Positions 15,892-22,741 of a stretch of 64,000 bases of DNA are shown here, in pieces (positions within the stretch are counted from its first letter, which is position 1; every line of letters begins with the position of its first letter). The DNA comes from Candidatus Poribacteria bacterium. Its GTDB lineage: Bacteria; Poribacteria; WGA-4E; PCPOR2b. Location: assembly GCA_965116925.1 (NCBI GenBank), contig OZ220744.1:704001-768000 (forward strand), in the 5' to 3' direction. Under the pieces are notes generated by a model that ran no database searches, was not told the origin of the DNA, and was given only the letters and a program-made list of their open reading frames with translations. The translations under genes and the position numbers were made by a program.

Positions 15892-15924
15892 TTGTTCGAT
15901 GGGCAGACAATAGCCATTTTAAGG

Positions 15925-15954
15925 TTGACAATCTCTAAGCGCATTAGGTATTAT
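15925..15954 (+). promoter_or_regulatory. Promoter of the tRNA pair
   Basis: TTGACA-18 bp-TATTAT about 30 bp upstream of tRNA-Lys. Confidence 0.6.
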
Positions 15955-15985
15955 TTCTGCTCGTTTTTGCTAATAGATCCATCGA

Positions 15986-16058
15986 GGGCCGTTAGCTCAG
16001 TAGGTAGAGCATCTGACTTTTAATCAGGTGGTCACAGGTTCGATTCCTGTACGGCTCA
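15986..16058 (+). tRNA. tRNA-Lys(UUU), CCA not encoded
   Basis: Acceptor GGGCCGT/ACGGCTC, anticodon loop CTTTTAA, GTTCGA T-loop. Confidence 0.97.
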
Positions 16059-16064
16059 CTTGTT

Positions 16065-16139
<75 letters not shown>

Positions 16140-16145
16140 TTTTTT

Positions 16146-16182
16146 AGCCCTTTCCACATTCGATATGGAAAGGGCTTTTTTT
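16146..16182 (+). terminator. Rho-independent terminator of the tRNA operon
   Basis: AGCCCTTTCCA/TGGAAAGGGCT stem followed by a T run. Confidence 0.85.
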
Positions 16183-16184
16183 AT

Positions 16185-17585
16185 CGAAAAAACCTTTAGG
16201 TCTAAAACCCCAACATTTATGTTTGGGATACAGACGGCTTTAGCGGTTTTTCTTGAGCCTCTGTGCAAAATATGGTACAGTTGTCTTGTCTTTCGTGGGA
16301 GAATGCTACCCCTATCGCACGATAGGGTCTCCTACACTCCCGTAGCATAGGCATGAAAGCCAGAAAGACAGTCCCTGATGAAAACCTACAAGTTCAAGTT
16401 GTATAGTAATCACGGTAATCGTGAGTTGCACAAGACAATAGACGGTCATGCTGATGTGTGGAATCATTGCGTTGCGCTTCAGCGTCGGTACTACGCAATC
16501 TATAGCAAATATATCAGCAAGTTTAGACTGATAAATCACATCTCTAAGTTGAAACGATTGCCTCGGTTTACCCATTGGAATCAGTTGCCCAGCCAAGCGA
16601 TTCAAGACGTAGCATCACGAATCGACAAAGGCTACCGGGCAATGTTTGAAGCGAGGGCACAAGGCAAAGCGTGGGGTCGTCCTCGCTTCAAGCCCCGTCG
16701 TAAATACAAATCATTCACATTGCTTCAAGCGGGTTGGCAACTGTTACCGGGCAACCGTATCAAAATAGGTAAAGGTATCTATCAGTATTTCAAATCCCGT
16801 GACGTGCGTGGCAACCCCAAGCGTTGCACAATCAAACGGGACGCTATCGGTGATGTCTATATCTGTATCTTAACTGACTATGTAGAACCGGACTTAAATC
16901 GACTCACGACGGGTAAAATCGCGGGGTTTGATTTCGGTCTGAAAAGGTATCTTACCGGTCATAACGGACACGATATAGAATCGCCACAGTTTTTTAAGCG
17001 CAGTATCCATTCTATCAAACGTGCAAACCGCGCGCATTCACGGAAAAAGAAAAAATCAAAGAACCGTGAACGTGCACGGCTTGACTTGGCACGAAAACAC
17101 CGCAAGATTGAACGCCAACGGGCGGATTTCCATTGGAAGTTGGCACACCAACTGACAGATGAATACGACGAGATACGCCTTGAGGACTTGAACCTACAAG
17201 GCATGAAATCCCTCTGGGGGCGTAAGGTCAGTGACCTGGGCTTTGCCGATTTTGTCAAAAAGTTGGTGTATATCGCCTCGAAAAAAGGTGTCAAAATCAC
17301 CTTCATTGATAAGTGGTATCCTTCGAGTAAAACTTGCTCGGTCTGCGGTGCGGTCAATGAAGCGTTGAATCTGCGGGATAGAACTTGGCAGTGTAACGAT
17401 TGTGGCACGGTGCATGACCGAGACCGCAACGCTGCAATTAATATCTACCGGGTTGGGGCGTCAACCCATGAAGGAGAGGACATAAGACCCGATTCGTCGG
17501 GCAATCCTTGTTGATAGCACAATTCCACTCCTATTGGCAAGGGACTCGTAAGAATCCCAATCCTTTAGGTTTGGGAGTACGTCAA
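16185..17585 (+). mobile_element. IS200/IS605-family element carrying tnpB only (IS1341-like)
   Basis: Left end after TTTAT with hairpin CCCCAACATTTATGTTTGGG; right end GAAT-CCCAATCCTTTAGGTTTGGG...TCAA as in IS608; no tnpA. Confidence 0.85.
16378..17514 (+). CDS. tnpB: RNA-guided endonuclease TnpB
   Basis: KTYKFKLY; RuvC D (GFDFG), E (LEDLN), D (DRDRNAAINI); CSVC/CNDC zinc finger. Confidence 0.95.
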   Translation: MKTYKFKLYSNHGNRELHKTIDGHADVWNHCVALQRRYYAIYSKYISKFRLINHISKLKRLPRFTHWNQLPSQAIQDVASRIDKGYRAMFEARAQGKAWGRPRFKPRRKYKSFTLLQAGWQLLPGNRIKIGKGIYQYFKSRDVRGNPKRCTIKRDAIGDVYICILTDYVEPDLNRLTTGKIAGFDFGLKRYLTGHNGHDIESPQFFKRSIHSIKRANRAHSRKKKKSKNRERARLDLARKHRKIERQRADFHWKLAHQLTDEYDEIRLEDLNLQGMKSLWGRKVSDLGFADFVKKLVYIASKKGVKITFIDKWYPSSKTCSVCGAVNEALNLRDRTWQCNDCGTVHDRDRNAAINIYRVGASTHEGEDIRPDSSGNPC

Positions 17586-17620
17586 TTACACTCCGAAATA
17601 CTCACTGAATATCTGCCTAC

Positions 17621-19615
17621 CTATACCAACTCCTCAAAACCCAACTCGTGCGGAGATTCATAGAAAATGGGACGCATCTGCAGATTCGTCTGGATAGGCG
17701 TTGCTTCCAGATCGACAGGCAAATAAATCGAGAACGTTGTCCCGTGCCCTTCCTCGCTGTGGAGATCTATTCTGCCTCGATGGTCACGGATCGTTCGTTG
17801 GACAATGTTCAAACCAAAGCCGCTCCCGTGCTGTTTGAGCGTGTATCCGGGTTGGTAGAGTTGGTCACGCACTTCATAGGGGATGCCAACCCCTGTGTCG
17901 ATAAAGGAGATTTGGATCTGGGACGATTCTGGTAGGTAGGCAGTTTTGATCTGGAGAAAGCCACCGCCTTCCATCGCGTCAACAGCATTAATAATTAGAT
18001 TGTTAAATGCTTCCTTCAACTGGCTAGAGTCCCCTTTGACCGGGGGCAGGCGTGTATCGAAAATTTGCTGGCACTCAATGTCTTTAGCTTCAAAAATAGG
18101 CATCAAGTTTCGCAATAATGTATCAAGGATTCTGTTAATATCAGTTAGCCCAAAGACCGGTTCTTCCATACGTAACTGCTGTAAAAGTTCAACCATTTCG
18201 TTATAGCACCCCTCATGTTGCGTGAGGATCTGATTGAGGGTGGTGTGCAGCTTGGAATCCGGTTCCGCTTGACGAGATGCAGATCGCAGTTGTCCGCCGG
18301 TTGCACTAACCAAGTTTTTCAGGCGGTGCAGTTGGGAGTAGAGACTCTGATACGCTTCCGCTCGCGCAACATCCATCAATGAAAGCGTGAGGTGAAAAAT
18401 GATATGTGCAGCTGTCTGTGGTTCCGCCTCTAACCATGCTTGCAGATCTTTCAGGATTTCTTCATCCCGCTCGTAGAAGTAGAGTTTGGCAAGATTATGA
18501 TAAGGTGATTCATAATCCGGGTAACGTTGGATAACCTGCTTAAATTCTGCGGCAGCCTTATCAATCATGTTTTTTTGGAGATAGAGGAGGCCAAGATTAT
18601 TTTGCGCTTGCGGTGAGGGAGCATGTTCCAAGCCGGTTTTGTAGGCATAAATTGCGAGGTCTGCATCTTCTGGGCGGTCATCATACAGGCTTCCAAGAAC
18701 AAAGAACACCTGACCGAGCAGCTCAAAGGTCTGTAATTCATCGTCACGCTTGATTAGTTCGATAAATTGATCGATCGCCTGTTGACGACATTCTGGGCGC
18801 GTATACCGATGTTTCGCATAAAGCAATCCAAGTTCAAATCGAGCGTCCAAATGTTCAGGATCTCGTTCAATCGCGTACTGCAAGCAGTGGATCGCTCGAT
18901 CCACATCGCCATATAGATTTAAGTAAATTTCTGCTAGGTGATAGTGGGCATCTGGTTCCCGTGGCTCAACTTCAAGGATTCCTTCAAAAACCCGCTCTGC
19001 GTCTTCCCACTGTTGCCGTTTAATGTACAAGACCCCAAGGTTATGGCGTGCCGCATGAAACGCCGGCGCGCGGCTGACAACCTGCTTGAAGTCCTCGCAC
19101 GCTTTCTCAAGATCGCCTAGTTTCTCGTAAAGTAAACCCCGATTGTACCATGCTTCAATGTATGAGGAATCCAACTCGATTGCGCGAGTAAATTCGTGGA
19201 TTGCCTGCCCCCATGCCCCCTCAAGTTCCGTCCAATCTTCTAACAACTGCCCCAAAACATAATGGTAGTTTGCATTCTGTGGATTCAATTCAATTGCTTT
19301 TTGGAGTGCTTCTTGGGCAAGATCAAACTCACCTTCTTTATAATATGCGAAACCGAGACTGTGGTGGACCGCTGCACAGGCTGGATCAAACTCAAGTGCG
19401 CGTTTATAGGCATTGACTGCAAGGGAATACTGACGCTGGACAGGCTCTAAATACCAATTGCCAAGCGCGTATTGATCGCGCGCTTCCTTGGAGGTGGGCA
19501 AGGCAGATTCGGTAGTGGAAACGGGAGGGGCAGGCTCTCCGCTGGCAGCGGGTGAAGTATCGTGAAGTTCATGTCCCTGGAAGTGTGATTTCACGGTGGG
19601 CTTTGCGTTGGACAT
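17621..19615 (-). CDS. TPR-repeat histidine kinase (soluble)
   Basis: About 10 TPR units; H-box-like HRLKNL; NLIINAVDA, DTGVGI, GSGFGL, GTTF HATPase boxes. Confidence 0.85.
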   Translation of the reverse strand: MSNAKPTVKSHFQGHELHDTSPAASGEPAPPVSTTESALPTSKEARDQYALGNWYLEPVQRQYSLAVNAYKRALEFDPACAAVHHSLGFAYYKEGEFDLAQEALQKAIELNPQNANYHYVLGQLLEDWTELEGAWGQAIHEFTRAIELDSSYIEAWYNRGLLYEKLGDLEKACEDFKQVVSRAPAFHAARHNLGVLYIKRQQWEDAERVFEGILEVEPREPDAHYHLAEIYLNLYGDVDRAIHCLQYAIERDPEHLDARFELGLLYAKHRYTRPECRQQAIDQFIELIKRDDELQTFELLGQVFFVLGSLYDDRPEDADLAIYAYKTGLEHAPSPQAQNNLGLLYLQKNMIDKAAAEFKQVIQRYPDYESPYHNLAKLYFYERDEEILKDLQAWLEAEPQTAAHIIFHLTLSLMDVARAEAYQSLYSQLHRLKNLVSATGGQLRSASRQAEPDSKLHTTLNQILTQHEGCYNEMVELLQQLRMEEPVFGLTDINRILDTLLRNLMPIFEAKDIECQQIFDTRLPPVKGDSSQLKEAFNNLIINAVDAMEGGGFLQIKTAYLPESSQIQISFIDTGVGIPYEVRDQLYQPGYTLKQHGSGFGLNIVQRTIRDHRGRIDLHSEEGHGTTFSIYLPVDLEATPIQTNLQMRPIFYESPHELGFEELV

Positions 19616-19634
19616 GGGGCATCACCTTGGCGGC

Positions 19635-21254
19635 CTATATCAGCATTTCATCCCCAATTGGGAAAAACTGATCTGCAATCCGCTGCAGATCCATCGATGT
19701 ATTATGTTCAAAAGCTGCAACCTCGATGCGCTTTCCGTGCTGTTTAATCAGTTCCGCAAGCGCACAGAAATCGCCATCCCCGCTTGCCAAAATCACAATA
19801 TCGAGTGCATCAAGCATCGACACTATATCGATGGCAATTCCGACATCCCAGTCTCCCTTAGCGGATCCATCGCCGCGCATCCGCAGGTCCTTACTCTTGA
19901 TCGTGTAGCCGTTATGTTCAAGAAGCGATAAAAATCCAGCCTGATTAATTTCGGGGATTTGGACAACATAAGCGTAAGCGGCGACCAGATTCCGAGGGCC
20001 AACGATGAGATCTAGTAGCTTAATATAGTCAAGCCGTCTCGCGTAGCGATCTTTTGCAGCATAGAACATATTCTGGACATCAACAAAAACGCCAACGCGT
20101 GGCTGCTCTGCCAGCATACGGTTTGCGCTTGCAGTGCTGCGCTGTCCTGAGAGACTTGTAATTTTTTGGCGCGCCCTTGTGATGACGGTCTTGTATTCCT
20201 CGTTGACCCCCCGCAGATAGGAGAATTGAGAATAGAAATTGGATTGTATCTGTTCAAGCACTTGCTGTGAATGATATGCCATCTCCTCAACCGATTTCAA
20301 TTCCACTGTTATCTTTTCCTTCTGTGCTTGCAGTTCGTGAAATTCACAAAGTTGGTTTGAAAACTTTTCCACATCCCGTTTGAGACCTATATTCTCACGG
20401 TTGAGTTGATCAATACGCAATTCGCTTTCCGCATACAATTCCTCTCTATTTTGTAAAACTTTGTTTTCTTCGACCAATGTTGTTATTTTCTCTTTGAGCC
20501 TGTCATTTTCATTTTGTAGAACCGTATATCCATTTTTCAGTTCAGAAAGCGCACTATAAAGTTTGTTAATCTGCTGCTGGTTTTGCTTTAGCTCATCGCT
20601 TAGGCGGGATTGCCGTTCTGTATCTAAATCTGTTTCAGAAATAGGTGTAATTTTAAGATACTCAGGGTCATTGGCAGGCAAAGCGGTAGAGGACTCAGTG
20701 GATTCAGAAATTGGTTCTTCATCATGAGTACGATTTAGCGAGGTGCTCTGGTTTGTCGTGTCTGATTCCGATCGTGCTGCCTCCTGTGCAGCATCCACTG
20801 GTGAAGTGTAGTTTCTATCCTCAGGCGGAGGAGGAGAAGGAGGAACAGATTGTTCATGGTCGGCAAGCAGCCTGTGACCGTGCTTCTGTACATCTTCGCG
20901 CGAATCAACCAACAGTGCCCATAAAATCTCGCCTAACTCACCTTCTGCGCGAAGTTGTTCCGCGCTTCTCAAGAAGATCCGAATTTCCTTTACCTCCATG
21001 AATTGGACTCGACGAGCGGCTTGTTCTGCCTTTTTTGCTAAGTGTTGACTCACGATGTCTTCGGTCAGAGCGCGGTTAAAAAAACATGCTGCTAAATCGT
21101 AGGCAATCCAATCTTTACGAATCCTAGTCCTGTGTTGGCTGTCGTGTAGGAGACCGCACTGATTCGCCATCGTGATAATTTCTTCCTCACCAAAACAATC
21201 GGTGATGATCCAAGCTAGTTGGTGGGTAGCAATGTGTGTTTTTGCTGGAACCAT
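19635..21254 (-). CDS. NYN (LabA/DUF88) nuclease domain fused to a long coiled coil and an N-terminal helical domain
   Basis: VFVDVQN, KGDWDV, SGDGDF acidic motifs; heptad-rich central region. Confidence 0.85.
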   Translation of the reverse strand: MVPAKTHIATHQLAWIITDCFGEEEIITMANQCGLLHDSQHRTRIRKDWIAYDLAACFFNRALTEDIVSQHLAKKAEQAARRVQFMEVKEIRIFLRSAEQLRAEGELGEILWALLVDSREDVQKHGHRLLADHEQSVPPSPPPPEDRNYTSPVDAAQEAARSESDTTNQSTSLNRTHDEEPISESTESSTALPANDPEYLKITPISETDLDTERQSRLSDELKQNQQQINKLYSALSELKNGYTVLQNENDRLKEKITTLVEENKVLQNREELYAESELRIDQLNRENIGLKRDVEKFSNQLCEFHELQAQKEKITVELKSVEEMAYHSQQVLEQIQSNFYSQFSYLRGVNEEYKTVITRARQKITSLSGQRSTASANRMLAEQPRVGVFVDVQNMFYAAKDRYARRLDYIKLLDLIVGPRNLVAAYAYVVQIPEINQAGFLSLLEHNGYTIKSKDLRMRGDGSAKGDWDVGIAIDIVSMLDALDIVILASGDGDFCALAELIKQHGKRIEVAAFEHNTSMDLQRIADQFFPIGDEMLI

Positions 21255-21293
21255 GGTAAATCTCCCGAATCGTATTATATCTTTCTATCGGTT

Positions 21294-21346
21294 TTGACGT
21301 ACTCCCAAACCTAAAGGATTGGGATTTAGACCTAAAGGGTTTTTCG
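21294..21346 (-). mobile_element. 53-bp solo-hairpin derivative of the IS200/IS605 element
   Basis: Reverse complement CGAAAAACCCTTTAGGTCTAAAT-CCCAATCCTTTAGGTTTGGG-AGTACGTCAA joins the left and right tips of 16185-17585. Confidence 0.85.
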
Positions 21347-22741
21347 TTAAATTTTTAGGATTTTGTTCCGGTTTTGTATAACTGATTTTGTTGCGTTTCG
21401 TGTGTCTACTACCGCAGTGGCGTGATCTACAAGCCAACAGTAATCAATATCGGCATGATCTGTCATAATCACCACACAATCAACACGCTGTACCAATTCC
21501 GCACTCAACTTTGCACAAAGATAACGCGCAGGCTGCCGGTTCTTCGGGGTGAAATCTTCAACCTCCAATTCTGGTACATACGGATCGTGGTATAAAATCT
21601 CACCCCCGCGTTGTGCAAGCATCCGGATGACATCAATAGCCGGTGATTCGCGGACATCCCCAACATTCTTCTTATAGGCAACGCCCATAATCAAGATTTT
21701 CGATCCGTTGATCGCTTTCTGGTGTTGGTTGAGTGCATCGATAGTTTTGCTGAGTACATACTCTGGCATTGAGCCGTTGATTTCACTTGCAAGCTCGATG
21801 AAACGCGCGTGAAACTCGTAAGTTTTTGCTTTCCACGACAGGTAATGTGGATCGACGGGAATACAGTGGCCGCCTAGCCCCGGCCCCGGGTAGAACGGCA
21901 TAAATCCAAACGGTTTTGTGGCGGCAGCATCGACAATTTCCCATACGTCCAATCCCATCTGGTCGCACATCAGTGCCATTTCGTTGACGAGACCGATATT
22001 GACGCTCCGGAAGGTATTTTCCAAGAGCTTGGCCATTTCCGCTACTCTTGTCGAAGAGACTGCATGAACTTCCTGAATGAACTGCTTATAAAAGTGTTGG
22101 GCGACCTGCGTGCATGTAGGCGTTATCCCCCCAACGATTTTCGCCGTGTTTGCGGTGGAGTATGTTGCATTACCCGGATCGATCCGTTCAGGAGAAAAAG
22201 CGAGAAAAAAATCTTCACCGACCTGCAAGCCGCTTTTTTCAAGCTTCGGCAGCACAACCTCCTCTGTTGTACCGGGGTAGGTTGTACTCTCCAAAATAAT
22301 CAACTGATCTTTGCGTAAATATTGCGCGATTTCATCTACTGCGGAGATGATAAAACTCATATCCGGATCCTTACTCTTGCGCAACGGTGTGGGTACGCAA
22401 ATATTAATCGTATCTAATTCTCTCAGGATCCGATAGTCGGTTGTCGCTTGAATCTGCCCTCGATGGACGAAGGACACAAGATCTTCAGATGGAACATCGG
22501 AGACAACCGAAATCCCGTTCTGAATACATTTAACCTTGCGACGGTCCACATCGATACCGGTAACAGAAAAACCGGCTTTTGCCATGGTTACCGCAAGTGG
22601 AAGCCCGACATAGCCAAGTCCGATAACGCCTGCGTATGCAGTCTGATTTTCGATTTTCTTTTCGATCATCTGCTGAGGGCTTTCACGATTTTTGGGGCTT
22701 CGATCCCGATCTTTTAGATCGAGGCTCAGACTCTCGGTCAA
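21347..22741 (-). CDS. UDP-N-acetylhexosamine/nucleotide-sugar 6-dehydrogenase (WbpA/WecC-like)
   Basis: GLGYVGLP, CVPTP, ESTTYPGTT, SPERIDPG, GGHCIPVDP; start uncertain. Confidence 0.93.
   Translation of the reverse strand: MTESLSLDLKDRDRSPKNRESPQQMIEKKIENQTAYAGVIGLGYVGLPLAVTMAKAGFSVTGIDVDRRKVKCIQNGISVVSDVPSEDLVSFVHRGQIQATTDYRILRELDTINICVPTPLRKSKDPDMSFIISAVDEIAQYLRKDQLIILESTTYPGTTEEVVLPKLEKSGLQVGEDFFLAFSPERIDPGNATYSTANTAKIVGGITPTCTQVAQHFYKQFIQEVHAVSSTRVAEMAKLLENTFRSVNIGLVNEMALMCDQMGLDVWEIVDAAATKPFGFMPFYPGPGLGGHCIPVDPHYLSWKAKTYEFHARFIELASEINGSMPEYVLSKTIDALNQHQKAINGSKILIMGVAYKKNVGDVRESPAIDVIRMLAQRGGEILYHDPYVPELEVEDFTPKNRQPARYLCAKLSAELVQRVDCVVIMTDHADIDYCWLVDHATAVVDTRNATKSVIQNRNKILKI

What the first reader, a model, noticed from the sequence alone, without database searches (positions are those of the whole stretch)
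21294..21351. Solo-hairpin IS605 relic whose guide tetramer covaries with its target site
Seen: 53 bp joining the left tip and right tip of the tnpB element through one hairpin, inserted right after the TTTAA that ends the sugar dehydrogenase gene. The full element has AAAA at the hairpin foot and TTAT at the site; the relic has AAAT and TTAA; the full right end has GAAT and TCAA. Established: the IS608 guide rule (AAAG-TTAC, GAAT-TCAA) predicts all three pairs. Inference: either left/right hairpin recombination deleted tnpB (solo-LTR analogue), or this is a minimal mobile unit using one hairpin for both cuts (with one mismatch at its TCAA end).
Basis: partly seen in the sequence, partly recalled or inferred. 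Interest (0 to 1): 0.7.

Follow-up and report, generated by a model that had tools for sequence, protein, structure and literature searches.

The report
Collapsed IS605 transposon stub in Poribacteria
The 53-base hairpin is real: it is what remains when an IS605-type jumping gene loses everything between its two near-identical end hairpins, a kind of stub described in salt-loving archaea in 2011, and whether such stubs can still jump remains untested.

Summary
Observation confirmed: a 53-bp one-hairpin unit (window 21294-21346, minus strand) sits precisely 3' of TTAA; 18 of 19 same-genus genomes have the site empty. The genome holds 8 near-identical copies, all AAAT/TTAA. Guide and target covary by the IS608 rule in 66 of 71 ends, but this belongs to the parents: full tnpB elements and 450-500-bp derivatives with the same AAAT guide, TTAA site and left hairpin occur in this genome and four relatives. 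The window's own tnpB element is not the parent (TnpB 23% identical). All 11 AAAT stubs are exact single-crossover products of parental left and right hairpins, in four variants, which points to repeated core deletions; no same-site full allele was found. This is the 'terminal-only PATE' of Haloquadratum (52 bp, Dyall-Smith 2011), and this scan has noted the kind in several other genomes. Self-mobility is unlikely (one-end TnpA complexes are inactive; no stub repaired its right-end mismatch; no cognate TnpA found here) but not excluded: 8 stubs face one surviving parent. New member of a known kind.

The parts
21294..21346 (-). 53-bp terminal-only (core-deleted) IS605-family remnant: left tip fused to right tip through one hairpin
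   Evidence: 8 near-identical copies in the genome
21347..21350 (-). Target tetramer TTAA (left cleavage site); its TAA is the stop codon of the dehydrogenase gene; present in 18 of 19 orthologous sites
21328..21346 (-). 19-nt left-end linker, identical to that of the one surviving AAAT-type full element of this genome (G000 3784054-3785560, where a MITE interrupts it at the guide)
21324..21327 (-). Guide tetramer AAAT (left-end type); predicts TTAA; mismatched to TCAA at one of three pairs
   Evidence: pairing scheme from PMC3201880
21304..21323 (-). Single imperfect hairpin, a crossover product of the parental left and right hairpins
21294..21303 (-). 10-nt right-end tail ending in the right cleavage site TCAA (same 10-nt spacing as IS608)
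16185..17585 (+). Full tnpB-only IS605-family element (TTAT site, AAAA left guide, GAAT right guide); related subfamily, not the parent; precisely absent from the ~99% identical strain of run X1
16378..17514 (+). tnpB, 378 aa (PF01385, PF07282)
21347..22741 (-). Upstream gene: UDP-glucose/GDP-mannose dehydrogenase family, 464 aa
19635..21254 (-). Downstream co-directional gene with a NYN domain, 539 aa, starting 39 bp after the remnant

Best explanation
An IS605-family element of a Poribacteria subfamily with left guide AAAT (a ~1.4-kb tnpB element or a 450-500-bp PATE-like derivative) was inserted 3' of TTAA by a Y1 TnpA supplied in trans (site and precise boundaries shown; enzyme inferred from the IS608 mechanism and from autonomous relatives). 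In this subfamily the left and right guide-plus-hairpin 24-mers are near-identical direct repeats (19-21 of 24 positions, shown). A deletion between them removed the core and left one hybrid hairpin with the left linker and guide and the right tail (inferred from crossover patterns). This happened repeatedly and independently, like solo-LTR formation. The stubs are most likely dead ends: the guide still matches the left site because it is the parent's guide, not because the stub chose the site.
For: Parents with the same guide and left hairpin type exist: 15 fetched AAAT elements in G018, G005, G007, G014 (13 of them at TTAA) plus one in G000. 11 of 11 AAAT stubs are exact single-crossover products of those parents' end pairs, in four hairpin variants; the 8 copies of G000 fall into 5 linker/hairpin combinations. 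In G018 the stubs' linkers match parents in the same genome. Single stubs from other subfamilies occur in G000, G012, G014, G019 and G003, so the collapse recurs. 0 of 11 changed the right end to TTAA or the guide to GAAT. TnpA complexes with one end are inactive; two ends are needed (PMC3201880). Same process described for 52-bp PATEs, with complete versus deleted alleles at the same site in four cases (PMC3119063).
Against: No same-site full or PATE allele was found for any stub, so deletion in place is not shown here. G000 has 8 stubs but only 1 surviving AAAT parent (G018: 3 stubs, 11 fetched parents), which needs a high collapse rate or a purge of parents. Five of the 8 share one hairpin and three are identical over 53 bp, which also fits amplification of one stub.
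Confidence: 0.78

Rival explanations
1. Some stubs are themselves mobile: after one deletion the 53-mer was moved by TnpA in trans, its own AAAT guide choosing TTAA targets, and the second cut was guided either by the same hairpin type with one mismatch at TCAA or by a second hairpin bound in trans on the TnpA dimer.
For: 8 stubs against 1 parent in G000, three identical. Right ends with guide CAAT (same position mismatched to TCAA) stand in 4 AAAT-clade elements of 2 genomes (L018, L024, L028, L136) and in 2 right ends of another family, so this mismatch may be tolerated. Complexes of two like ends are active in IS608. In Haloquadratum all six strain-specific ISHwa23 insertions were the 52-bp form, which the authors took as a hint of mobility.
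Against: One-end complexes are inactive. In ISGst2, changing the left site to the right-site sequence abolished excision, and a mutated right site sent the cut to another matching site downstream (PMC10055086 section 6); no stub carries such captured 3' flank. The four hairpin variants are all explained by parents without mutation. No cognate TnpA found in G000. The CAAT ends could have spread by gene conversion.
Confidence: 0.15
2. A variant of the best explanation as to route: stubs are products of cut-short gap repair. TnpA excises the parent, TnpB cuts the empty site, both broken ends copy only the tips of the element from the sister chromosome and anneal at the first shared homology, the hairpins. 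The stub then separates the target motif from the guide-matching flank and protects the site from re-cutting. (Confidence is for this route among deletion routes.)
For: TnpB is reported to cut vacant donor sites and drive retention by break-stimulated recombination (search listing only; PMC10055086 passages). It would explain a high stub-to-parent ratio and the six stub-only insertions of ISHwa23. The analogy with abortive gap repair of P and Ac/Ds elements is recalled, from no call.
Against: No direct evidence here; ordinary slippage or recombination between ~24-nt direct repeats gives the same sequence. Target motifs of these TnpBs were not measured.
Confidence: 0.2
3. The stub derives from the window's own AAAA/TTAT element by a crossover inside the guide tetramer, creating a hybrid AAAT guide that then redirected insertion to TTAA (the reading in which covariation proves mobility).
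For: AAAT is the formal hybrid of AAAA and GAAT; the right 33 nt equal the window element's right end.
Against: AAAT/TTAA exists in intact elements of five genomes; the stub's linker differs from the window element's and matches the AAAT parent's; the two TnpBs are only 22.9% identical over 315 aa.
Confidence: 0.03

Closest known systems
Terminal-only PATEs of Haloquadratum walsbyi: 52-bp forms of HqIRS46 and of the tnpB-only transposon ISHwa23 (Dyall-Smith et al. 2011, PMC3119063; passages read, supplements not readable)
   Same: Size (52-54 bp), fused termini with one copy of the near-terminal palindrome, origin by deletion between 19-22-bp repeats, several copies per genome, mobility left open.
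   Different: Host is a sponge-associated bacterium (Ca. Poribacteria); the repeats here are imperfect (19-21 of 24), so crossover points can be read; a same-site complete allele was not found here.
IS608 of Helicobacter pylori, IS200/IS605 family (He et al. 2011, PMC3201880; parts 1-3 of 5 read)
   Same: Guide tetramer 5' of the hairpin foot pairs with the cleavage tetramer; right end TCAA 10 nt from the foot; many parental left ends have ATAC after the hairpin; no target duplication.
   Different: IS608 has two hairpins and two guides; the stub has one. Left linker plus guide is 23 nt here against 19 nt. Targets here are TTAA, TTAT, TTAG and TTAC depending on subfamily.
ISGst1-5 and their PATE-like derivatives of Geobacillus stearothermophilus (Meers et al. 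2023 preprint, PMC10055086; passages and section 6 read)
   Same: Natural covariation of target and end motifs with DNA guides among subfamilies in one genome; tnpB-only and gene-less elements moved in trans.
   Different: No single-hairpin form appears in the passages read; their motifs are 5 nt.
REP sequences and TnpA-REP (search listing only; single-hairpin cleavage on both sides is recalled)
   Same: One hairpin with a tetramer at its foot.
   Different: The stub keeps IS605 linkers, a fixed TTAA target and a fixed TCAA end, and has IS605 parents; nothing links it to the RAYT-like genes of this genome.

Membership tests
IS200/IS605 family derivative | Insertion 3' of a fixed tetramer, no target duplication, precise empty site | tested here: met
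   8 of 8 copies follow TTAA; empty site exact in G001 and G005, and within one base in 18 of 19 relatives
IS200/IS605 family derivative | Guide 5' of the hairpin foot complementary to the left cleavage site | tested here: met
   66 of 71 ends complementary at guide 4 / site 4, 63 of 71 at all three pairs; shuffle mean 31.5, maximum 45 of 20,000
IS200/IS605 family derivative | Ends shared with tnpB or tnpA-tnpB elements | tested here: met
   Parents with tnpB (PF01385, PF07282) and autonomous relatives with Y1 TnpA (PF01797)
Terminal-only PATE (Dyall-Smith 2011) | About 52 bp, only fused termini, one palindrome, no ORF, no terminal inverted repeats | tested here: met
Terminal-only PATE (Dyall-Smith 2011) | Parent whose two near-terminal palindromes form a direct repeat | tested here: met
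   19-21 of 24 identical positions in 16 parents; 11 of 11 stubs are crossover products
Terminal-only PATE (Dyall-Smith 2011) | Complete allele at the same site in another strain | tested here: inconclusive
   None in 19 relatives for two sites or in 5 relatives for seven sites; contigs of the conspecific run X1 break inside the stub
Transposition-competent IS605 mini-element | Two hairpins, each with its own guide | tested here: not met
   One hairpin, one guide; two-end complex required in IS608
Transposition-competent IS605 mini-element | Right guide complementary to TCAA | tested here: not met
   AAAT against TCAA mismatches at guide 1 / site 2 in 11 of 11 stubs
Transposition-competent IS605 mini-element | TnpA-dependent excision and reintegration | not testable with these tools
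   Needs an assay; cognate TnpA not found in G000 with this query

The most novel reading that the evidence does not exclude
The 53-bp stub is the smallest IS605 mobile unit: one hairpin and one guide, with the second cut made through a tolerated mismatch or through a guide borrowed in trans from another element's hairpin on the same TnpA dimer. Such units would be a living intermediate between two-ended IS200/IS605 elements and single-hairpin REPs, and the Poribacteria set (stub, parents and a 137-aa cognate TnpA in relatives) is a ready test of the question left open in 2011.
Probability: 0.15. Interest if true: 0.65.

Novelty: new member of a known kind. Interest (0 to 1): 0.2.

Why it matters
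As found, it is an ordinary decay product that extends terminal-only PATEs to a bacterial phylum and shows the IS608 guide rule across four natural guide classes. Its modest value is that imperfect end repeats let the crossover points be read, which favours repeated deletion over stub mobility, a question the 2011 description left open. If stubs do move, or are made by TnpB-triggered repair, that would change how single-hairpin repeats are thought to arise.

Tried and rejected
Relic as daughter of the window's tnpB element: rejected. Selection for collapse in operons: among TTAA-target elements 5 of 11 stubs against 7 of 27 parents lie within 60 bp downstream of a co-directional ORF, Fisher P 0.27 (P 0.49 at 150 bp, 0.72 at any distance, crude ORF calls); the apparent bias is confounded by TAA stops. 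Terminator or promoter role: none found in 21200-21450. Rfam: only two tRNAs in 15900-21500. Replication-strand bias: cumulative GC skew gave no usable origin and terminus. JGI metagenome scan: 11 hits, all chance matches without the element. Viral contigs: 0. GTDB-wide scan with the family-specific stub pattern: 4 hits, all Poribacteria. Broader stub pattern in the genus: 35 hits; of the 21 outside G000 and G018 that were inspected, 4 were stubs and 17 ordinary right ends; 4 G002 hits had no locus and were not inspected. One search used a pattern of wrong length and found nothing; one search replaces it. The 'id' column was out of register and is not used. Empty alleles in runs X15 and X16 carry one extra base like the alleles of more distant species, so they are not taken as excision products. 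Literature searches for single-hairpin or terminal-only IS605 forms and for gap-repair origin found only PMC3119063 for the stub; most subscription papers are not in the library.

Full report
What is there. On the minus strand, window 21346-21294 is a 53-bp unit made of a 19-nt linker, the tetramer AAAT, a 20-nt imperfect hairpin and a 10-nt tail ending in TCAA (fold). It follows TTAA, whose TAA ends a UDP-glucose/GDP-mannose dehydrogenase-family gene, and lies 39 bp before a co-directional NYN-domain gene. Its halves match the two ends of a tnpB-only element at 16185-17585. The window is G000:C1:704001-768000. Same-genus genomes are titled Candidatus Poribacteria and the runs that hold the stretch are mostly sponge metagenomes.

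It is an insertion. The orthologous site was found in 19 of 19 same-genus genomes. It is empty in 18 (exact in 5, including the two closest; one extra base in 13) and holds an unrelated 148-bp repeat in one. None holds the stub or a parent. In run X1, a strain about 99% identical, contigs enter the stub from both sides but break inside it, so stub and full allele cannot be told apart; the same strain lacks the window's full element precisely (1401-bp skip).

Copies. G000 has 8 near-identical copies, all with AAAT and TTAA, and a ninth stub with a left-type hairpin at a TTAT site. The family-specific pattern finds stubs in 3 of 20 genus genomes (G000 8, G018 3, G012 1; reversed control 0). A broader pattern and an orthologue search add one each in G014, G019 and G003. 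For the seven other AAAT stubs, 5 relatives each were searched: exact or near-exact empty sites were seen for four of them, three were only partly resolved, and no parent allele was seen at any.

Covariation. The pairing scheme (guide 1 with site 2, guide 2 with site 1, guide 4 with site 4) was taken from PMC3201880 (parts 1-3 of 5 read). The census covered all left ends and stubs found in G000 and loci L001-L051, which I chose by guide type (about 50 of some 170 matches, not a random sample). Of 76 rows, 5 were dropped (4 with guide GTAT, 1 false hit). Of the remaining 71, 66 are complementary at guide 4 / site 4 and 63 at all three pairs; shuffles gave mean 31.5 and maximum 45 of 20,000. The shuffle ignores that guides are inherited within four classes. 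Exceptions: two AAAC/TTAT in G000, two AAAT/TTAC at contig ends of G019, one AAAT/TTAG in G018. Guide position 3 varies freely (AAAT and AAGT both give TTAA; AAAA and AAGA both TTAT). Such natural covariation is already reported for ISGst1-5 (PMC10055086, passages).

The parent is not the window's element. G018, G005, G014 and G007 hold full tnpB elements of 1385-1467 bp and gene-less derivatives of 452-500 bp that already carry AAAT and the stub's type of hairpin at their left end, 13 of 15 at TTAA. G000 keeps one such full element at 3784054-3785560, with the stub's exact linker, interrupted by a MITE at the guide and with its TTAA lost in an adjacent 58-bp deletion. Its TnpB is 22.9% identical to the window's over 315 aa. 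So the stub's guide matches its site because the parent chose that site.

How it formed. In 16 AAAT parents the left and right guide-plus-hairpin 24-mers agree at 19-21 of 24 positions. All 11 AAAT stubs, in four hairpin variants, are exact single-crossover products of such pairs. The variants include one with the whole right hairpin, one switched in the loop and one with a whole left hairpin of another parent type, so at least four events are implied. In G018 the stub linkers match parents of the same genome. Five single stubs from other subfamilies show that the collapse recurs. These are inferences from sequence; the direct proof, a full allele at a stub site, was not found.

Can it move? 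Against: in IS608 only the complex with two ends cleaves; the stub's one guide mismatches TCAA at one of three pairs and 0 of 11 have repaired this; in ISGst2 a mutated right site moved the cut to another matching site and changing the left site to the right-site sequence blocked excision (section 6). The cognate Y1 TnpA (137 aa) has close copies in G005, G018, G014 and G006 but was not found in G000; the five PF01797 matches of G000 look RAYT-like or broken (my reading of the translations). For: 8 stubs against 1 parent in G000, three of them identical; right ends with guide CAAT, mismatched at the same position, in four AAAT-clade elements; two like ends form active complexes in IS608. I put mobility at about 0.15. 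A TnpB-triggered gap-repair route to the stub is a testable idea of mine with no direct evidence.

Comparison with what is known. PMC3119063 (main-text passages) describes 52-bp terminal-only forms of HqIRS46 and ISHwa23 made by repeat-mediated deletion between 22- and 19-bp palindrome repeats, with complete versus deleted alleles in four cases, and notes that six strain-specific ISHwa23 insertions are all 52-bp forms, which may indicate mobility. Its supplements (Tables S6, S9, Text S1) could not be read and may bear on guide and site details. I reached this paper before looking up earlier notes of this scan, which record the same kind in phages, Asgard archaea and a Dependentiae bacterium (unchecked AI notes). 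Searches found no other description and none for Poribacteria; the library lacks most subscription papers.

Verdict. Observation confirmed; interpretation partly supported. New member of a known kind, interest 0.2. The most novel reading left open, a one-hairpin mobile unit, has probability about 0.15 and would deserve about 0.65.

Noticed in passing
G000:C1:5860269-5860322 (L133) and L147 (G003): Two unrelated 54-bp stubs occupy the identical TTAT nucleotide between two ribosomal-protein genes (by their sequences rplF and rplR; names are my reading) in two species, while 17 of 19 relatives are empty and one is unresolved: independent insertions at a hotspot, both collapsed.
   Followed up: partly
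G000:C1:3848854, 571521, 3884806, 5860288: Left ends whose guide reads GTAT, the complement of the ATAC behind the hairpin, extending the palindrome and destroying the guide: looks like quasi-palindrome correction that immobilises the element.
   Followed up: no
L018, L024, L028, L136; L181, L186: Right-end guide CAAT instead of GAAT with TCAA kept, in several elements and two families; possible tolerance of a mismatch at guide position 1.
   Followed up: partly
G000:C1:402163, 2585579, 3016047, 4472937, 5588956: Another left-end group with foot CAAT, several preceded by TGAA some 11-12 nt upstream, which also fits the guide rule.
   Followed up: no
L003, L029 (G019 contig ends): Two left ends with AAAT at TTAC sites, against the rule; could be assembly chimeras at contig ends.
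   Followed up: no
window 16185-17585: The full tnpB element sits just behind two tRNA genes (15986-16058, 16065-16139) and is precisely absent in the ~99% identical strain of run X1.
   Followed up: partly
G000:C1:367445-367466: An 11-bp tandem duplication spanning the target and first bases of the stub, absent from relatives.
   Followed up: partly
L011, L013, L014, L022, L023, L027: 450-500-bp gene-less AAAT/TTAA derivatives, three identical in G018, with a long right part that may encode a guide RNA without TnpB.
   Followed up: no
window 21294-21328: Run X1 shows a contig joint that goes back 35 bases, suggesting a tandem of hairpin plus right tail somewhere in that sample (letters between not known).
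   Followed up: no
window 13226-60960: Many REP-like and MITE-like repeat families (D1-D20) fill the intergenic spaces.
   Followed up: no
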